Shown: in pieces, positions 2,351 through 50,298 of the stretch | Position numbering within the stretch: the first letter of the stretch is position 1 | Layout of the letters: each line of letters starts with the position of its first letter | Source of the DNA: Eledone cirrhosa | Taxonomy: Eukaryota | Assembly: GCA_964016885.1 (NCBI GenBank) | Contig: OZ024762.1 | Span: 19,778,001-19,842,000 of the forward strand | Length of the DNA: 64,000 bases | Direction: 5' to 3' | The notes under the pieces: generated by a model | What the model was told of the DNA's origin: nothing | The model's database searches: none | What the model saw: the letters and a program-made list of their open reading frames with translations, nothing else | Made by a program: the position numbers and the translations under genes

Positions 2351-2665
2351 TATACGATATTAAATAAATGGAAACTATATTTATAAAACCATATTTATTT
2401 CATTATACATATTTCAGGGATACCAAATTAAAATATGGTATGCCTTCATCAGACAAAATACAATATATAAACAGTTTTATAAATAATTTTGACGTACCCT
2501 ATTAGATGCAACCATTATTTTTGGAAGCTGTCTGGATAGACACTATAAATATAGTTTCCATTTATTTAATATCGTATATCTACTCCAAAAACTTGTCGAG
2601 TGCTTTATATCAGTTATAAAATATTTACTTGTTGTATCCCAACAATTTTAAATAGAACTTTTACA
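2351..2665. mobile_element. PLE-like pLTR derivative, family A, with inverted arms 2351-2384/2544-2578 and tail 2579-2665
   Basis: About 35-bp inverted arms, internal minus-strand hammerhead, (TA)n on both sides; near-identical to 21787-21963. Confidence 0.75.
2396..2460 (-). ncRNA. Type I hammerhead ribozyme (family A)
   Basis: Reverse complement reads TATTTTGT-CTGATGA-AGGCATACCA..TGGTATCCCT-GAAA-TATGTA-TA|ATGAAATA; helices I-III all pair. Confidence 0.8.
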
Positions 2666-3071
2666 TATATATATATATATATATATATATATATACACAA
2701 GAAGGTGCTGAAAAGTTCCTGGCTTGATCACTGCTACAGGGGCTTGCTTGGAGGCCCAACCTTCTGAGTTCTTTTTACAGGGCTTTGAAAATCTGAAGGC
2801 AAAACTGCTGCAAAAATTAGTATACACAGCAAAGCCCCTAATTTTACATATCAAAGTTAGCTTGGTGCAAGTAATTGGAATTGAAAAGATACACATACAG
2901 GTATTAAACTCAAAAATTCTAAGCATCCTATAATTAAAAAGCCCATCTGAGGCCACAAATAAATTTCTATGTCCGACACTGGTGAGGGCCTAGGGCAATT
3001 GCCCCCTTTGCTCGCCATTAAATCCGGCTCTGGGAACCAGTGGTATATAGACTCTGTCAATTTAGCACCTT

Positions 3072-3287
3072 TTAACCGTTTAGCATTTACATTACTTTAT
3101 ATTTACTATTGTATTTTCATGGTAAAGTCTTTATTTCACATAATATCGAATCTATGAGATTTTGATATTATATATTTTGAGAACAATACCTTAACATAGG
3201 TATGAGAGGCTAGTTACAGCTGGTTTGAACAGAAAGAACTGAGATAATTCTGGCCAGATATGGCCAGTTTAAATGTTAAAGGGTTAA
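3072..3287. mobile_element. piggyBac-like MITE
   Basis: TTAA at both ends; termini CCGTTTAGCATT...AATGTTAAAGGG; further copies at 18478, 18681, 26563 and 30732. Confidence 0.8.
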
Positions 3288-3585
3288 ATATAATTATTAT
3301 CTTATTAATAAGTAATATAGTATATAAAGTAATATGTTATGTCAATACTAATCTATATTTCTTTTTCTTCTATTTACAGGTCAGTACCATTATTTCTGTT
3401 CTGGTAGGTTCTATTATTTTCTCTGTTGTATGTTGAAGATTTTAAAAACAAAATGTTTTCTTTTCATACACTTTTACTATTTGTATTCCAAACCACGCAA
3501 AACCACCCTGAATTTATAATACAAACAACACTGCCCATTTTAAAAATGTTTATTTTTGTCTCAAAGCCTTCCATTATAATTTTAA

Positions 3586-3777
3586 GGGCGGAGGATTGGC
3601 AGTATCGGTAGAGGGTTGGACGCCATGCTTTGACGCATAGAGTTACGGCCCTTGCCATTCTGAGTTCAAATCGCGCCGAGGTTAACTTTGCCTTTCATCC
3701 TTTCGGGGTCGATAAAATAAAGTACCAGTAATACACTGGGTAATTGCTGGCCTTGTGCCAAATGTAGAAACAATTAT
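3586..3777 (+). mobile_element. tRNA-derived SINE family S1 (Nin/Deu-domain-like core)
   Basis: A-box-like TGGCAGTATCGG, B-box GAGTTCAAAT, core GCCTTTCATCCTTTCGGGGTCGATAAAATAAAGTACCAG. Confidence 0.85.
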
Positions 3778-4074
3778 AATTTTATGTATTAGAATTGTTT
3801 TCGACACGCTGATGCTTGTATGAGTATATTATCATAAATGTGTAAGCACGTACACACTTAGAAAAATACACACTCACAGACATACAATCATAGAAACACA
3901 CACATGCAGTGTAGCAAATGGAACACCAGCCACTGTTTTGCTATAGTTTTTTCACCAAACCCTTCCTTCCTTTTGCACACACATACATTTACACACACAC
4001 ACACACACAAACAAACACACACACATATTGTGTGACAGACGAACGGACAGACAAAAGTCACTCAAGTTTATATA

Positions 4075-4200
4075 TAGAACCTTTATCAACATTTTTTATA
4101 CCAAACCACCCGATGCGCATTTTATTATAGAATTGACTTCTACAGGACTAGACCTGTTTCATTCGTAAGAAATCATCTTCTGCACTAGTTACAGGAACTC
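4075..4200 (-). mobile_element. Degenerate family-F pLTR fragment with a mutated hammerhead core
   Basis: Reverse complement AAGATGA-TTTCTTACGAAT-GAAA-CAGGTCTAGTCCTG-TA matches family F (28945, 30195), but CTGATGA is altered. Confidence 0.6.
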
Positions 4201-4750
4201 AATGACGATGATGATGATTGTGATCCCAGAGTAGAAATCTAAGTAAAAGTAATTTCCCAGTAACATCTGTATTTACCCAAATCTAAGTAAAAATAATTTC
4301 CCAGTAACATCTGTATTTACCCTTTTTAGTAACAGCCCCACCCTGAAACCACTCTGGATTTATGATATAAACAACACTACTCATTTTTAAAATGTTTATA
4401 TTAGGAGGTGCTGTAAAGTCCCTGTCATTTATATATGATGATAATACTGCTCAATTTAAAATGTTTATCCTTATATTAAAACCTTCTACCATAGTTTTAT
4501 TACAGAAATTGTTATTAAGTAATGTTAGATCAGCTTATTAATGAAAAACTTATTTAATTAAATACTTATATGTTTGGATATTTTCCAAATTAGGTTGAAC
4601 ACATAGGCAGTGTAATTAATTATTTTGTAGAAAATATCTCCAAATGTTTATAGTATCTTTACTTACTGTAAAGATTGTTGTGAACATTTGCTGAGTAAAA
4701 AGTTAAAATTCTAATGTGATGCTGTCTTCAACCGTTCAATAGATTGACAG

Positions 4751-47075: not shown

Positions 47076-47134
47076 ATGGAAGGGCCATGGGGGCATATTG
47101 TCTATATGCTTCAGCTTCGGCTTATATATATATT

Positions 47135-47376
47135 AGCTAAGGCAGGTAGAATTCCTGAGGTCCATGAAGGAGTTCTCTTCAGCGGTCTCTGCCCTTCATC
47201 ATTGCTGCTATGTTCCGCGTCTCCCAGAGACTAGTGTCTTTCCTTACAGCATCAACATATGTCATCGTTGATCTCTCTCTTCCAGTGTGTCCATGTAGGA
47301 ACTCCCACAGGACCACTGAGTGCAGTGTCAACTCAAAATGTTCGTGAGCATGTCCAGCTAGCCTCAGTCTCCTCAC
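47135..47376 (-). mobile_element. Diverged 3' fragment of the same RTE family
   Basis: [24 protein letters not shown] matches the C-terminus of the 44666 ORF. Confidence 0.9.
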
Positions 47377-47656
47377 TTCCCCACGAATAGGGATCATATA
47401 TCTGCCCTCTCTTTACTCTCGCCCACATCACCAGTTAAGGGGTCATACATCTGGTCCTTCTTTACCCTGGCCCACCTCTCCAGGGATAGGGCTCATACAC
47501 CTGCCCCTCTTTACCCTGGCTTGCCTCCCCAGGGAAGGGGTCATATATCTAGCCCCTCTTTACCCTGGCCCACCTCCCCAGCGAACTCTGGCTTACCTGG
47601 CAAAACTATGTTTTGAACATAGTTTTGATTATTCTGTAATTTATATATATATACAT

Positions 47657-47998
47657 GGAGGCACATGGCTTAGTGGTTAGAGCATTGGCCTTGCAATCGA
47701 AAGGTTGTGAGTTCAATTCTCAGACCGGGTGATGTGTTGTTTCCTTGAGCAAGAGACTTTATTTCACATTGCTCCAGTCTACTCAGCTGTAGAAATGAGA
47801 TGATAGGGACTGGGGTCCCTATCATTCCACTGCAAAGTGGTCGTGGAGGTGCCACTGCAAAAAAGCACCCAGCACTCACTGTAAATGAGGTTGGTGTTAG
47901 GAAGGGCATCCAGCTGTAGAAATCAAGCCAGAATCAGTTCCCGTCCCACCCTTGCAAGCAGGGAAAAGTGGACGTAAAATGATGATGATGATGATGAT
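47657..47998 (+). mobile_element. S2 SINE, full length
   Basis: Near-identical to the 32539 copy. Confidence 0.9.
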
Positions 47999-48785
47999 AT
48001 ATATATATACATAAATATGCACAAACAAAAATATTGTGCAAATGTCGATATTTTCTTCTTCTGTTGATGTTTTTTTAATGTATTGGAGGGCGAGGTGGGG
48101 AGTGTTTGTTTTTGTTATTTTTTGCTTTTGTATTGTTTGTTATTTATCCATTTGTTCTCTTGCTAACTGAGTGTATATATATATATGTATGTGTGTGTGT
48201 GTGTGTATTATATAGATATGGATATATATGTATATATGTATGTATATATGTACATATGTATATCAAAGTATCGACACTTATCACTTAATAGTGGTGTGTG
48301 TGTTGTATGTATTATGTAGATGTGTGCATTTCTATATACAGATGGAAACATGTGTTTCTGTCACACACACACACGTACATACATACATACTACGTACACA
48401 CACACATATATACATGCATACATACGTACATGCACACCTACCAACATACATGCACACATGCATGCATACATCATACATGCATACACACATACATATATAC
48501 ACCCATACATACACATACATACATGTATATGTATGTATGTGTATGTAGATATATATATGCACACAAATATATTACTTTTCTATGTGTTAAAGTTACCCTA
48601 CCACCACATATATATGTATATATAGACACATTTATATATGTTTAATTGACTCATATAGACTTATAGACTTTATCTGCAAAATACTATATACACGCACACA
48701 CACACACATATATATATATAAACACACTCACACACACATATATATATATATAAACACACTCACACACACACACATATATATATAT

Positions 48786-48933
48786 ATAATATAAGATCAA
48801 AAGATGGTTAAAGGAGTTCCTTTAACCATCTTTTGATCTTATATTATGTATACTCCAGTCCTACAAACTGTAGAGTGCTTCTTATCCGATATCTGCATTG
48901 CTTTATTGTACTACAATAAAACTCACCTCCTAC
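48786..48933. mobile_element. Family D fold-back (arms 48786-48847) plus tail
   Basis: Perfect 30-bp arms matching 21415-21444. Confidence 0.85.
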
Positions 48934-49785
48934 ATATATATATATATATAAACACACTCACACACACACATATATATATATATAAACACACTCACACACA
49001 CATATATATATATATAAACACACTCACTCACACACACACATATATATTTAAACACACTCACACACACACATATATATTTAAACACACTCACACACACACA
49101 CAAAAATATATATATATATATATAAACACACTCACACACACATATATACATATATATATAAACACACTCACACACATACACACACATATATATATATATA
49201 TATATATAAACACACTCACACACACACACATATATATATATAAACACACTCACACGCACACATATATATTTAAACACACTCTCACACGCACACATATATA
49301 TTTAAACACACTCTCACACACACACAAAAATATATATATATATAGTTTTTCCATTCTGTGAATGCGTGATATCATATTGATTTCTCTTTATATACTTGCA
49401 TACATAAGCATATAATACACACACACATATATATATATGCACAAAACATACATGTATGTATATATATATATATATATAGAGAGAGAGAGAGAAAGAGTCA
49501 GAGAGAAAGAGAGAGAGAGAGATACATACATACATATATATACAATCATATACATATACATACATACGTATACATACATTCATATACATGGATGTATGTA
49601 TATGTATGTATATGTATGTATGTGTATGTATATGAATGTATATTTATGTATGTATCTCTCTCTCTCTGAATCTCTCTCTGACTCTCTCTCTCTCTCTCTA
49701 TATATATATATATATTAATAAGAGGAATTCCAACTTTGTCTGATTTACTTTGTCTGATTATGTATATATATATATATATAGAGAT

Positions 49786-50298
49786 ATATAGATAGATAGA
49801 TATAGAGATAGATAAATATACACGGGTGTGTATGATTGTGTATAGAAGATTATATTAATAAAAGGAATTCAAACTTTGTCTGATTTACTCGTTTTATTTA
49901 CAATCCTTTAAAAGTTATAATGGTATTAGAATGAAATAGTATGGTAGAATATTAAATGTTAAGTGTTAGTTGAACAAGTACTTTCATGCTTTCGCAATCT
50001 TCAGGTTCATATTCAGTGGTGACAGTCAAGTTTGGAATTTTCAATAGTTGAAAATTGCAAACTTGACTCTCACCAGTGCGTATGAACCTGAAGATAGCGA
50101 AAGCATGAAAGTACTTGTTCAATTAACACTTAACATTTAATATTCTACGATACTATTTCATTCTAATACCATTATAAATGTTAAAGGATTGTAAATAAAA
50201 CGAGTAAATCAGACAAAGTTGGAATTCCTTTTATTAATATAATCTTCTATACACACCCGTGTATATTTATCTATCTCTATATCTATCTATCTATATAT
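49786..50298. mobile_element. Family I fold-back of about 500 bp, centre near 50046, with divergent hammerheads
   Basis: Long near-perfect palindrome; TGAAC-CTGAAGA-T(A/T)GC GAAA GCAT-GAAA-GTAC-TT|GTTCA at 50083-50121 (+) and about 49971-50009 (-). Confidence 0.9.

What the first reader, a model, noticed from the sequence alone, without database searches (positions are those of the whole stretch)
2396..50121. Dispersed hammerhead ribozymes from many mostly unrelated families, nearly all with a palindromic helix III
Seen: complete type I folds (helix I-CUGANGA-helix II-GAAA-palindrome-UH|helix I') at 2396(-), 15702(+), 21336(+), 21857(+), 24986(+), 27970(-), about 28961/29022 (both strands), about 30280/30330 (both strands), 33677(+), 46438(-) and about 49971/50083 (both strands). 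Helix III inserts are TATGTA, TATATA, TGCGCA, CAATTG (twice), TGATCA, GTAC and the near-palindrome CAGTTCTAGTCCTG. Helix I sequences differ between families but always pair. Most lie in short segments next to (TA)n, and several are followed closely by AATAAA. Established: Penelope-like elements carry minimal type I hammerheads in their pLTRs, and a palindromic helix III favours cleavage as a dimer. Inference: these are pLTR derivatives of a large PLE radiation, at more than ten hammerhead folds in 64 kb, mostly with hexamer rather than tetramer palindromes.
Basis: partly seen in the sequence, partly recalled or inferred. Interest (0 to 1): 0.88.

Follow-up and report, generated by a model that had tools for sequence, protein, structure and literature searches.

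The report
Hammerheads on Penelope-element end stubs
The hammerhead RNA motifs are really there: they sit on leftover ends of Penelope-type jumping genes inserted in TA repeats, a known arrangement; they likely cut only in pairs, and what stands out is their number, well over a hundred thousand in this animal genome.

Summary
Observation confirmed. All 14 motifs lie at the stated coordinates. A strict descriptor finds 11 cut sites against 0.01 in shuffles; three motifs are imperfect copies. They come from 11 insertions of 8 families, each a 5'-truncated pseudo-LTR stub, nearly all beside (TA)n.

Parents were traced in the same genome. Six families lead to Hydra-clade Penelope-like ORFs, which Pfam misses; the one modelled folds like telomerase. 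One leads to a Neptune-type RT plus GIY-YIG ORF. One leads to a 2.9-kb ORF-less non-autonomous unit.

Five motif classes total 138,963 matches genome-wide (controls 140), and a 390-kb sample suggests about 240,000. The window is only about 2.4 times the sampled density.

Two families often carry a U4C core. Cleavage and expression are untested.

Palindromic-helix-III hammerheads in Penelope pLTRs, the Hydra clade in octopus, (TA)n targeting and tails are all published. This scan noted the same thing elsewhere in this genome and in others. New members of a known kind; only the scale is notable.

The parts
2396..2460 (-). Type I hammerhead, family A (insert TATGTA), predicted cut after 2404; lies in a pLTR stub 2347-2539 with an inverted arm from 2544 that starts past the core and ends at the long 'tail' end near 2662
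   Evidence: Hydra-type ORF upstream of this family's hammerhead in L109-L113
11653..11702 (-).
15702..15762 (+). Type I hammerhead, family A subfamily (insert TATATA), predicted cut after 15754; about 80% like the parent pLTR of the 21857 copy
21336..21406 (+). Type I hammerhead, family B (insert TGCGCA), predicted cut after 21398; stub 21275-21451 ending at the short end
   Evidence: full-length elements with two direct pLTR hammerheads in L100, L103, L104; 22,290 pattern matches
21857..21921 (+). Type I hammerhead, family A (insert TATGTA), predicted cut after 21913; stub 21785-21969, 98-99% identical to many genome copies
24986..25032 (+). Hammerhead, family C (insert CAATTG), predicted cut after 25028; one helix II mismatch; canonical core here although most family copies carry U4C; stub 24796-25220
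   Evidence: Hydra-type endonuclease end about 1.5 kb upstream in L082 and L085
27970..28017 (-). Type I hammerhead, family D (insert CAATTG, 9-bp helix I, 2-bp helix II), predicted cut after 27979
   Evidence: Hydra-type endonuclease end about 190-220 nt upstream in L054, L058, L067/L068, L101, L137
28945..29159 (.). Family E foldback insertion with hammerheads at 28962-29010(-) and 29022-29070(+), 14-nt helix III insert, predicted cuts after 28967 and 29065; one short and one long end
   Evidence: leader matches the sequence between hammerhead and start codon of the 713-aa ORF in L117; 23,308 pattern matches
30190..30389 (.). Second family E foldback insertion with hammerheads at 30276-30330(-) and 30330-30380(+), predicted cuts after 30284 and 30374
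33677..33734 (+). Type I hammerhead, family F (insert TGATCA), predicted cut after 33730; stub 33514-33957 with a short inverted piece 33462-33516; parent is a 2.9-kb ORF-less hammerhead-to-hammerhead unit
46438..46551 (-). Damaged hammerhead, family G: 7-bp helix I, 9-bp helix II with a long loop, helix III palindrome broken in this copy; stub 46418-46561
   Evidence: Hydra-type endonuclease fragments about 0.9 kb upstream in L197/L209, L207, L208 and nearer in L199
49751..50341 (.). Family H foldback insertion with hammerheads at 49971-50009(-) and 50083-50121(+), insert GTAC, predicted cuts after 49976 and 50116; 3' end of a Neptune-type PLE
8601..8792 (.). Family I stub: foldback carrying only the 3' half of a hammerhead (17-nt helix III insert), no CUGANGA half; further copies at 28728-28917, 46682-46742, 56315-56460, 63482-63603
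48779..48948 (.). Family B stub truncated past the hammerhead (leader and tail only, with a short inversion); family E-like core-less stubs lie at 4120-4177 and 22096-22196

Best explanation
The motifs are type I hammerhead sequences on 5'-truncated end stubs (pseudo-LTRs) of Penelope-like retroelements, mostly of the Hydra clade, that sit in (TA)n repeats; the stubs likely arise when reverse transcription primed at a cut (TA)n stops early, and the ribozymes are predicted to cut mainly in pairs. Shown: each family's hammerhead lies between the 3' UTR of one unit and the leader of the next; full elements carry two direct copies around a single RT-endonuclease ORF; copies end at two fixed points after the cut site (about 20-60 nt, and a tail 65-145 nt further), most at a TA or AT that matches the target; head-to-head insertions usually have one short and one long end. 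Inferred: the element protein cuts both strands of (TA)n and primes cDNA from the two leader sites, one on each side of the break, giving short stubs and mirror-image pairs. In the parent transcript the two pLTR hammerheads would pair through their palindromic helix III, probably helped by the element protein, and release a unit-length RNA. Most window copies are passive remnants: solo stubs have no partner in cis and the foldbacks are predicted to pair with themselves.
For: Enrichment over shuffles and unbiased helix I and palindrome tests. Family H hammerhead about 380-410 nt after RT plus GIY-YIG ORFs in L034, L035, L038, L046, with 98% identity over 3.4 kb between L034 and L038. Family B elements with two direct pLTR hammerheads around the ORF in L100, L103, L104; family E in L117. 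Hydra-clade motifs DKT, RW-x, CxCX5C, CxxC and CxH present and CCHH absent. Profile match to the Neptune-type ORFs over RT and endonuclease, probability 97%, E 6e-12. Model of the family E ORF (pLDDT 93) has telomerase RTs as its five best PDB matches. Two fixed ends per family and 143 of 161 copies at (TA)n; 27 of 38 inverted pairings are short plus long, 5 are like plus like, 6 unclassified. No monomer helix III for 4-7-nt inserts but a duplex of -2.2 to -10.5 kcal/mol. Published dimer cleavage, two-strand cutting, two initiation sites and protein-assisted cleavage.
Against: No cleavage or expression data. Family F has no coding parent, the 11653 motif and family I were not traced, and C, D and G rest on endonuclease-end fragments rather than whole ORFs. 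Family E can form a 4-bp helix III alone, so it need not dimerise. Family C spread with a U4C core (91 of the first 100 listed copies), a change reported to lower activity considerably in vitro, and in the one reconstituted PLE hammerhead mutants did not affect insertion in vitro, so cleavage may be dispensable. Tails here (65-145 nt) are longer than the 30-40 nt described. Family H ends were more scattered than the others.
Confidence: 0.9

Rival explanations
1. The motifs are non-LTR retrozymes or hammerhead SINEs: small non-coding units that are cut out as RNA circles and only borrow a PLE enzyme.
For: Family F is an ORF-less 2.9-kb hammerhead-to-hammerhead unit in five loci at 93-96% identity, longest stop-free frame 100 codons. 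A 311-bp tandem array with six hammerheads occurs in L151. Animal retrozymes are proposed to be non-autonomous PLE derivatives.
Against: Seven of eight families continue upstream into PLE coding sequence, with 5' ends that vary from copy to copy, and none of the window copies is in a tandem array. This reading fits family F alone, and F is far longer than the 51-972 bp retrozyme units reported.
Confidence: 0.06
2. The elements are PLE stubs, but their hammerheads no longer need to cut: the fold is kept as a protein-binding, termination or structural signal, or simply rides along.
For: U4C cores in 91 of 100 listed family C copies and 9 of 24 family G copies against 8 canonical; family I stubs spread without the 5' core half; AATAAA overlaps or closely follows the cut at 7 of 15 sites; hammerhead mutants insert normally in vitro and Naiad PLEs thrive without hammerheads.
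Against: Core, helix I pairing and helix III symmetry are kept while arm sequences differ completely between families; single core substitutions were rare in loci not chosen for C or G (56 canonical, at most 5 of any variant). This points to selection on the catalytic fold in the parent elements. This rival is compatible with the assignment and differs only on function.
Confidence: 0.25
3. Chance matches in AT-rich, palindrome-rich repetitive DNA.
For: About half the window is tandem repeat (30,932 bases masked), and none of the 150 listed Rfam matches of 281 is a hammerhead family.
Against: 11 sites against 0.01 in shuffles; 138,963 genome matches against 140 for the reversed patterns; fixed position in PLE ends.
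Confidence: 0.01
4. Host-domesticated ribozymes that regulate a gene in this window.
For: The window is 2.4 times the sampled density, and a cut in an intron could in principle end a pre-mRNA (inference).
Against: The copies are ordinary family members at 90-99% identity to dispersed copies, on both strands, several damaged. No host protein domain was found in 107 of the 117 open frames selected; the only Pfam matches were retroelement domains. Short exons could be missed.
Confidence: 0.02

Closest known systems
Type I hammerheads in pLTRs of metazoan Penelope-like elements (Cervera and de la Pena 2014, PMC4209133; parts 1-2 of 4 read)
   Same: Type I fold, extra base after position 9, short palindromic helix III, many families per genome, mostly solo copies from truncated PLEs, opposite-strand pairs 100-700 bp apart, predicted dimer activity.
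   Different: Inserts here are 4-18 nt rather than 0-2 nt; counts are at least 138,963 against about 2,000-9,000 reported there; two families often carry U4C.
Hydra clade of C-terminal-endonuclease PLEs, including Hydra-1_Obim from Octopus bimaculoides (Craig et al. 2021, PMC8557442; section 11, passages, supplement part 2 of 59 and passages)
   Same: DKT, RW-K-like motif, CxCX5C linker, CxxC and CxH, no CCHH, YRDD, (TA)n targets, hammerhead near the 3' end with palindromic helix III, complex tandem and inverted insertions with a tail at one end.
   Different: That paper lists one cephalopod family among 27; here at least six families in one 64-kb window and over 100,000 hammerhead-bearing ends. 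Units are longer (3.3-6 kb between hammerheads in the full copies seen, against under 3 kb). RWK reads RWI, RWT or RWR. None of the window hammerheads is the Hydra-1_Obim motif printed in the supplement.
Neptune (or Nematis) clade PLEs (definitions from PMC8557442 passages)
   Same: Family H parent: RT with DKG, CX4CxxC linker, C-terminal GIY-YIG, hammerhead in the 3' pLTR, (TA)n ends.
   Different: Not placed against named reference elements, so Neptune and Nematis are not separated.
Poseidon element PAc of Anolis (Frangieh et al. 2024, PMC11167929; parts 1-2 of 4 read)
   Same: Two reverse-transcription start sites downstream of the hammerhead give the tail; AT-rich target; both strands cut and extended.
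   Different: Tails here are 65-145 nt; the ends mostly fall at TA or AT matching the target, whereas PAc starts are described as not homologous to the cut DNA; here the ORF starts well after the hammerhead.
Animal non-LTR retrozymes (PMC7229834 passages; bioRxiv 10.64898/2026.07.22.740005 parts 1-2 of 5)
   Same: Non-coding unit bounded by type I hammerheads (family F; tandem array in L151).
   Different: Family F is 2.9 kb, dispersed and truncated like a PLE, not a short tandem array; the other seven families have coding parents.

Membership tests
Type I hammerhead ribozyme | Core CUGANGA ... GAAA ... UH with helices I and II closing it | tested here: met
   11 of 14 motifs pass the strict descriptor; 3 are imperfect copies of families whose other members keep the helices
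Type I hammerhead ribozyme | Helix I pairing kept while arm sequences change | tested here: met
   13 of 18 own against 2.1% swapped in the random sample; 39 of 71 against 1.9% in all loci
Type I hammerhead ribozyme | Site-specific self-cleavage after H17 | not testable with these tools
   No assay possible; no RNA run available to lay
Type I hammerhead ribozyme | Match to an Rfam hammerhead model | tested here: inconclusive
   No hammerhead among the 150 listed of 281 matches; 131 weaker ones not shown
PLE pLTR hammerhead (dimer type) | Short self-complementary helix III that cannot close in a monomer | tested here: met
   No monomer hairpin for 4-7-nt inserts, duplex -2.2 to -10.5 kcal/mol; family E (4 of 14 motifs) is an exception with a 4-bp monomer stem
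Penelope-like element | Single ORF with telomerase-like RT and C-terminal GIY-YIG endonuclease next to the hammerhead repeat | tested here: met
   H; B, E whole ORFs and A 527-566-aa frames; C, D, G endonuclease ends only. Not met for family F
Penelope-like element | Direct pLTRs, 5' truncation, inverted 5' copy and a tail at one end | tested here: met
   L100, L103, L104, L117, L163 have direct hammerhead repeats; two fixed ends per family; 27 of 38 inverted pairings short plus long
Hydra clade (families A, B, C, D, E, G) | DKT in place of DKG; RWK-type motif | tested here: met
   DKT in the B, E and A frames that reach that region; RWI/RWT/RWR in B and E, RWK in 6 of 8 database homologues examined; region not recovered for C, D, G
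Hydra clade (families A, B, C, D, E, G) | CxCX5C linker, CxxC and CxH around E and N, no CCHH | tested here: met
   All three in A, B, E; CxxC and CxH ends read in the C, D and G fragments
Hydra clade (families A, B, C, D, E, G) | Groups with named Hydra elements in an RT tree | tested here: inconclusive
   A, B, E form a 100/100 clade with 8 unnamed homologues, apart from the Neptune-type ORFs; named references were compared by eye only with the supplement text, not put in the tree
Hydra clade (families A, B, C, D, E, G) | (TA)n insertion preference | tested here: met
   110 of 120 copies of these six families, background 28%
Neptune clade (family H) | DKG and CX2-5CxxC linker before a C-terminal GIY-YIG | tested here: met
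   shared with Nematis, which was not excluded
Non-LTR retrozyme | Short (under 1 kb) non-coding tandem units each with a hammerhead | tested here: not met
   No window copy is tandem; family F unit is non-coding but 2.9 kb
Non-LTR retrozyme | Accumulates as circular RNA | not testable with these tools
   No RNA run available

The most novel reading that the evidence does not exclude
This genome carries about 240,000 hammerhead motifs, one per 13 kb, denser than any animal count found in the papers read, mostly from a many-family radiation of Hydra-clade Penelope elements that Pfam cannot see. Within it, families with a weakened U4C core and a 2.9-kb ORF-less passenger have spread, and the short-plus-long asymmetry of mirror-image insertions records a protein dimer priming both sides of one (TA)n break from two sites on the RNA. 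The genome would then be a natural experiment on whether PLE hammerheads need to cut at all.
Probability: 0.45. Interest if true: 0.5.

Novelty: new member of a known kind. Interest (0 to 1): 0.3.

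Why it matters
The kind is known, so the window teaches little by itself. The genome-wide picture has modest value. It shows that the Hydra clade, described from a few families, can be a major repeat class that domain-based annotation misses. 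It gives thousands of dated insertions with two fixed ends per family for studying how PLEs prime reverse transcription. It also gives natural core variants (U4C, half-hammerhead stubs, monomer-capable helix III) for the open question of what PLE hammerheads do. If even a small share of sense-strand intronic copies cut, they could affect host pre-mRNAs, but nothing here shows that.

Tried and rejected
Rfam scan: dominated by microsatellite matches to miRNA models; no hammerhead among the 150 listed of 281. Repeat finder swamped by simple repeats; replaced by masked self-BLAST. DNA search for family B returned nothing because the words are too common; a pattern search then gave 22,290. The GIY-YIG family search finds only Neptune-type and similar elements: at first families E and F seemed linked to those ORFs in L036, L040 and L043, but alignment showed separate nested insertions, so that link was dropped. 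Pfam finds no RT in 7 of 7 Hydra-type frames and only a sub-threshold GIY-YIG match in one; the PDB sequence search with their alignment found nothing. Single-sequence fold was useless (pLDDT 32); repeated with 116 sequences. Family F: six long loci plus 20 walking loci gave no PLE protein match upstream of its hammerhead. Sequencing runs: no RNA holder listed; no reads were laid. The 581-aa frame at 44393-46135 is an RVT_1 LINE-type fragment with no match to the PLE proteins. ARAGORN found no tRNA. Lunse et al. on dimer cleavage is not held; only its title was seen in a reference list. Literature searches showed no genome-wide hammerhead count for a cephalopod; the library lacks most subscription papers, and the bioRxiv supplement was not seen. 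One of 40 random stretches did not exist and was left out.

Full report
Setting. The window is G000:C23:19778001-19842000 in a 3.0-Gb animal genome of 1,796 contigs. It is 36.5% GC and about half tandem repeat. No call names the host. I read it as octopus-like from recalled repeat motifs and contig sizes, and an earlier scan note on the same genome says the same; treat that as unverified.

Observation. A strict type I descriptor (helix I at least 4 bp, helix II at least 2 bp, paired insert) gave 12 hits at 11 distinct cut sites. 200 whole-window and 200 block dinucleotide shuffles gave 0.005 and 0.01, maximum 1. Three are imperfect: 24986 and 50083 have a helix II mismatch, and 46438 has a broken helix III where 22 of 24 relatives keep CAATTG. 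Because the descriptor asks for the features it reports, I ran two tests without those conditions. With no helix I condition, 13 of 18 sites in a random genome sample pair with their own arm against 2.1% for swapped arms, and 39 of 71 over all loci. With no palindrome condition, 11 of 15 sampled sites are fully self-complementary, and 9 of 22 distinct inserts over all loci against a shuffled mean of 2.8. AATAAA follows 7 of 15 sites within 30 nt (background 2.4%). One more decayed motif lies at 11653-11702(-). The 14 motifs belong to 11 insertions and 8 families, called A to H here.

Scale. Exact pattern counts over the whole genome, which do not demand helices, were 79,751 for TATRTA (reversed control 135), 23,308 for the family E insert (0), 22,290 for TGCGCA (0), 8,050 for CAATTG (5) and 5,564 for TGATCA (0): 138,963 against 140. 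Thirty-nine 10-kb stretches at round-number positions (40 asked) held 31 motifs against 0.5 in 20 shuffles, which extrapolates to about 240,000 (bootstrap 115,000-376,000). The window has 12 by the same filter, 0.19 per kb against 0.08, so it is only moderately rich. Inserts in the sample were 13 tetramers (6 from one tandem array), 11 hexamers and 7 longer, so hexamers do not dominate. Published counts I saw are about 2,000 plus 1,300 in Schistosoma, 4,000 in coelacanth and 9,000 in Xenopus, over 6,000 in Acropora, about 5,000 in mussel and up to 120,000 retrozymes in axolotl, a 28-Gb genome. Those used other descriptors.

Parents. A GIY-YIG search gave 10,597 candidates, 150 scored. Among 20 long stretches fetched, the family H hammerhead follows RT plus GIY-YIG ORFs by about 380-410 nt in L034, L035, L038 and L046, and L034 and L038 are 98% identical over 3.4 kb including ORF and hammerhead. 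The ORF has DKG and a CX4CxxC linker, which is Neptune- or Nematis-type. The other families did not link to these ORFs, so I fetched long same-family pairs. Family B gave full elements with two direct hammerhead repeats around one ORF in L100, L103 and L104 (808-codon frame), and an 821-codon frame in L108. Family E gave L117: hammerhead, leader, 713-aa ORF, 3' UTR, hammerhead; the window stubs match that leader. Family A gave 527-566-codon frames upstream of the hammerhead in L109 and L114 and fragments in L110-L113. Families D, C and G gave endonuclease-end fragments of the same type about 0.2, 1.5 and 0.9 kb upstream in several independent loci. Family F is different: L163, L175, L178, L182 and L185 share a hammerhead-to-hammerhead unit of about 2.9 kb at 93-96% identity, with internal duplications and no frame over 100 codons. 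It is a non-autonomous element.

Clade. The A, B and E proteins have no Pfam RT match. They match the Neptune-type ORFs by profile over RT and endonuclease (97%, E 3e-11 and 6e-12), and a confident model of the E protein (pLDDT 93, 116 sequences) has telomerase RTs as its five best PDB matches. They carry DKT, an RW motif, YRDD, a CxCX5C linker, CxxC and CxH and no CCHH, which are the Hydra-clade features in Craig et al. 2021. That paper's supplement lists Hydra-1_Obim from Octopus bimaculoides with (TA)n preference and a hammerhead with a palindromic helix III, and its printed protein shows the same motif order by eye. In a tree of 18 rows, A, B and E group 100/100 with eight unnamed homologues, apart from the Neptune-type ORFs; A and B are weakly sister (84/75). 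The E protein has 1,403 relatives at E 1e-30 or better among 7,992 scored candidates. So the families are mostly one clade, not unrelated.

How the stubs form. In all eight families copies end at (TA)n: 143 of 161 distinct copies within 260 nt of the cut, background 28%. The ends cluster at two points per family, about 20-60 nt after the cut and 65-145 nt further; family H is more scattered. Read-through copies show TA or AT at most of these points. Of 38 head-to-head pairings, 27 have one short and one long end, 3 two short, 2 two long and 6 could not be classed; a few pairings join separate insertions. This matches the published tail present at one end only and the two initiation sites and two-strand cutting shown for the anole element. 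I infer target-primed reverse transcription from both sides of a (TA)n break, usually stopping early. Stubs truncated past the core support this: 48779-48948, 4120-4177, 22096-22196 and five family I half-hammerheads.

Whether they cut. Inserts of 4-7 nt form no monomer hairpin but give duplexes of -2.2 to -10.5 kcal/mol; the family E insert forms a 4-bp stem alone. Published work found no monomer and low dimer cleavage for a minimal PLE hammerhead, and protein-assisted cleavage that was not needed for insertion in vitro. With 100 nt of flank, helix I probability falls to 0.00 for the six foldback motifs and for 2396, and stays high only for 27970 (0.96), the decayed 11653 motif (0.94) and 21336 (0.59). 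Most window copies are therefore likely inert. Family C has U4C in 91 of the first 100 listed of 491 matches (8 canonical, 1 other; counted by eye), so the canonical core at 24986 may be a later C-to-T change. Family G has 9 U4C and 8 canonical cores among 24. U4C is a known natural variant that lowers activity in vitro but supports viroid infectivity. In loci not chosen for C or G, canonical cores numbered 56 and no variant exceeded 5.

Host gene. Pfam found only retroelement domains in the 581-aa frame and in 107 of 117 other selected frames. Short exons are not excluded.

Novelty. Every element of the finding is in print: palindromic-helix-III hammerheads in PLE ends, the Hydra clade in octopus with (TA)n targets, tails and inverted copies, and PLE activity in Octopus vulgaris, in a paper whose main text does not mention hammerheads, Hydra or Neptune. 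Eight searches showed no genome-wide hammerhead count for a cephalopod. This scan has 22 earlier findings with the same key words in at least 5 genomes, two of the eight shown from this genome; I looked after forming my reading. Papers seen: PMC4209133 parts 1-2 of 4; PMC8557442 passages, section 11, supplement part 2 of 59 and passages; PMC11167929 parts 1-2 of 4; bioRxiv 10.64898/2026.07.22.740005 parts 1-2 of 5; PMC6765202, PMC3088659, PMC7229834 and PMC13282606 passages; Lunse et al. title only.

Verdict. Real, explained, new members of a known kind. Interest 0.3, resting on the scale, the hidden Hydra radiation, the U4C families and the long non-autonomous unit.

Noticed in passing
window 8601-8792, 28728-28917, 46682-46742, 56315-56460, 63482-63603; many loci, e.g. 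L125, L155, L159: A very common ninth family of (TA)n-embedded foldback stubs carries only the 3' half of a hammerhead with a 17-nt helix III insert (4-bp stem, palindromic centre); nearly all copies stop inside loop II, so descriptor counts miss them. Parent not traced.
   Followed up: partly
family C (window 24986) and family G (window 46438), genome-wide: U4C core in 91 of the first 100 listed family C copies and 9 of 24 family G copies.
   Followed up: partly
L163:2565-5667; L175, L178, L182, L185: ORF-less non-autonomous unit of about 2.9 kb bounded by family F hammerheads, with internal 230-bp and 500-bp duplications.
   Followed up: yes
L151:6165-7877: Six identical hammerheads (insert CGCG) at 311-bp spacing in a tandem and inverted array, retrozyme-like.
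   Followed up: no
L032:7200 and 7659; L041:8568, 9079, 9562: Short tandem repeats of pLTR-like units (about 460-510 bp) each with a hammerhead, downstream of PLE ORFs; possible step from PLE end to retrozyme.
   Followed up: no
L043, L037, L021, L017, L049, L050: Neptune-type families for which no linked canonical hammerhead was found downstream of the ORF.
   Followed up: partly
window 44393-46135 (+), fragment at 47137-47373 (-): 581-codon frame with RVT_1 and DUF6451, a LINE-type RT fragment unrelated to the PLE proteins.
   Followed up: partly
window 18840-20450 and about 62385-63454: Very homogeneous minisatellites, 60-bp unit (27 copies, 98%) and 70-bp unit (about 14 copies, 93-95%); the 60-bp array starts inside a palindromic dispersed repeat at 18550-18822.
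   Followed up: no
window 6058-6367, 24151-24473, 31645-31950, 32539-32860, 42946-43265, 47657-47978: A young dispersed repeat of about 320 bp, up to 99% identical between copies, SINE-like; a second family of about 190 bp has over 15 copies (e.g. 3583-3777, 40327-40715, tandem at 54497-55111).
   Followed up: no
window 56527-56638 and 48794-48839: Further small perfect foldbacks; the second is a family B leader fragment, the first is unassigned.
   Followed up: partly
L104:6069-8899: Helitron-like helicase fragments next to a full family B element (read from translations; label recalled, not searched).
   Followed up: no
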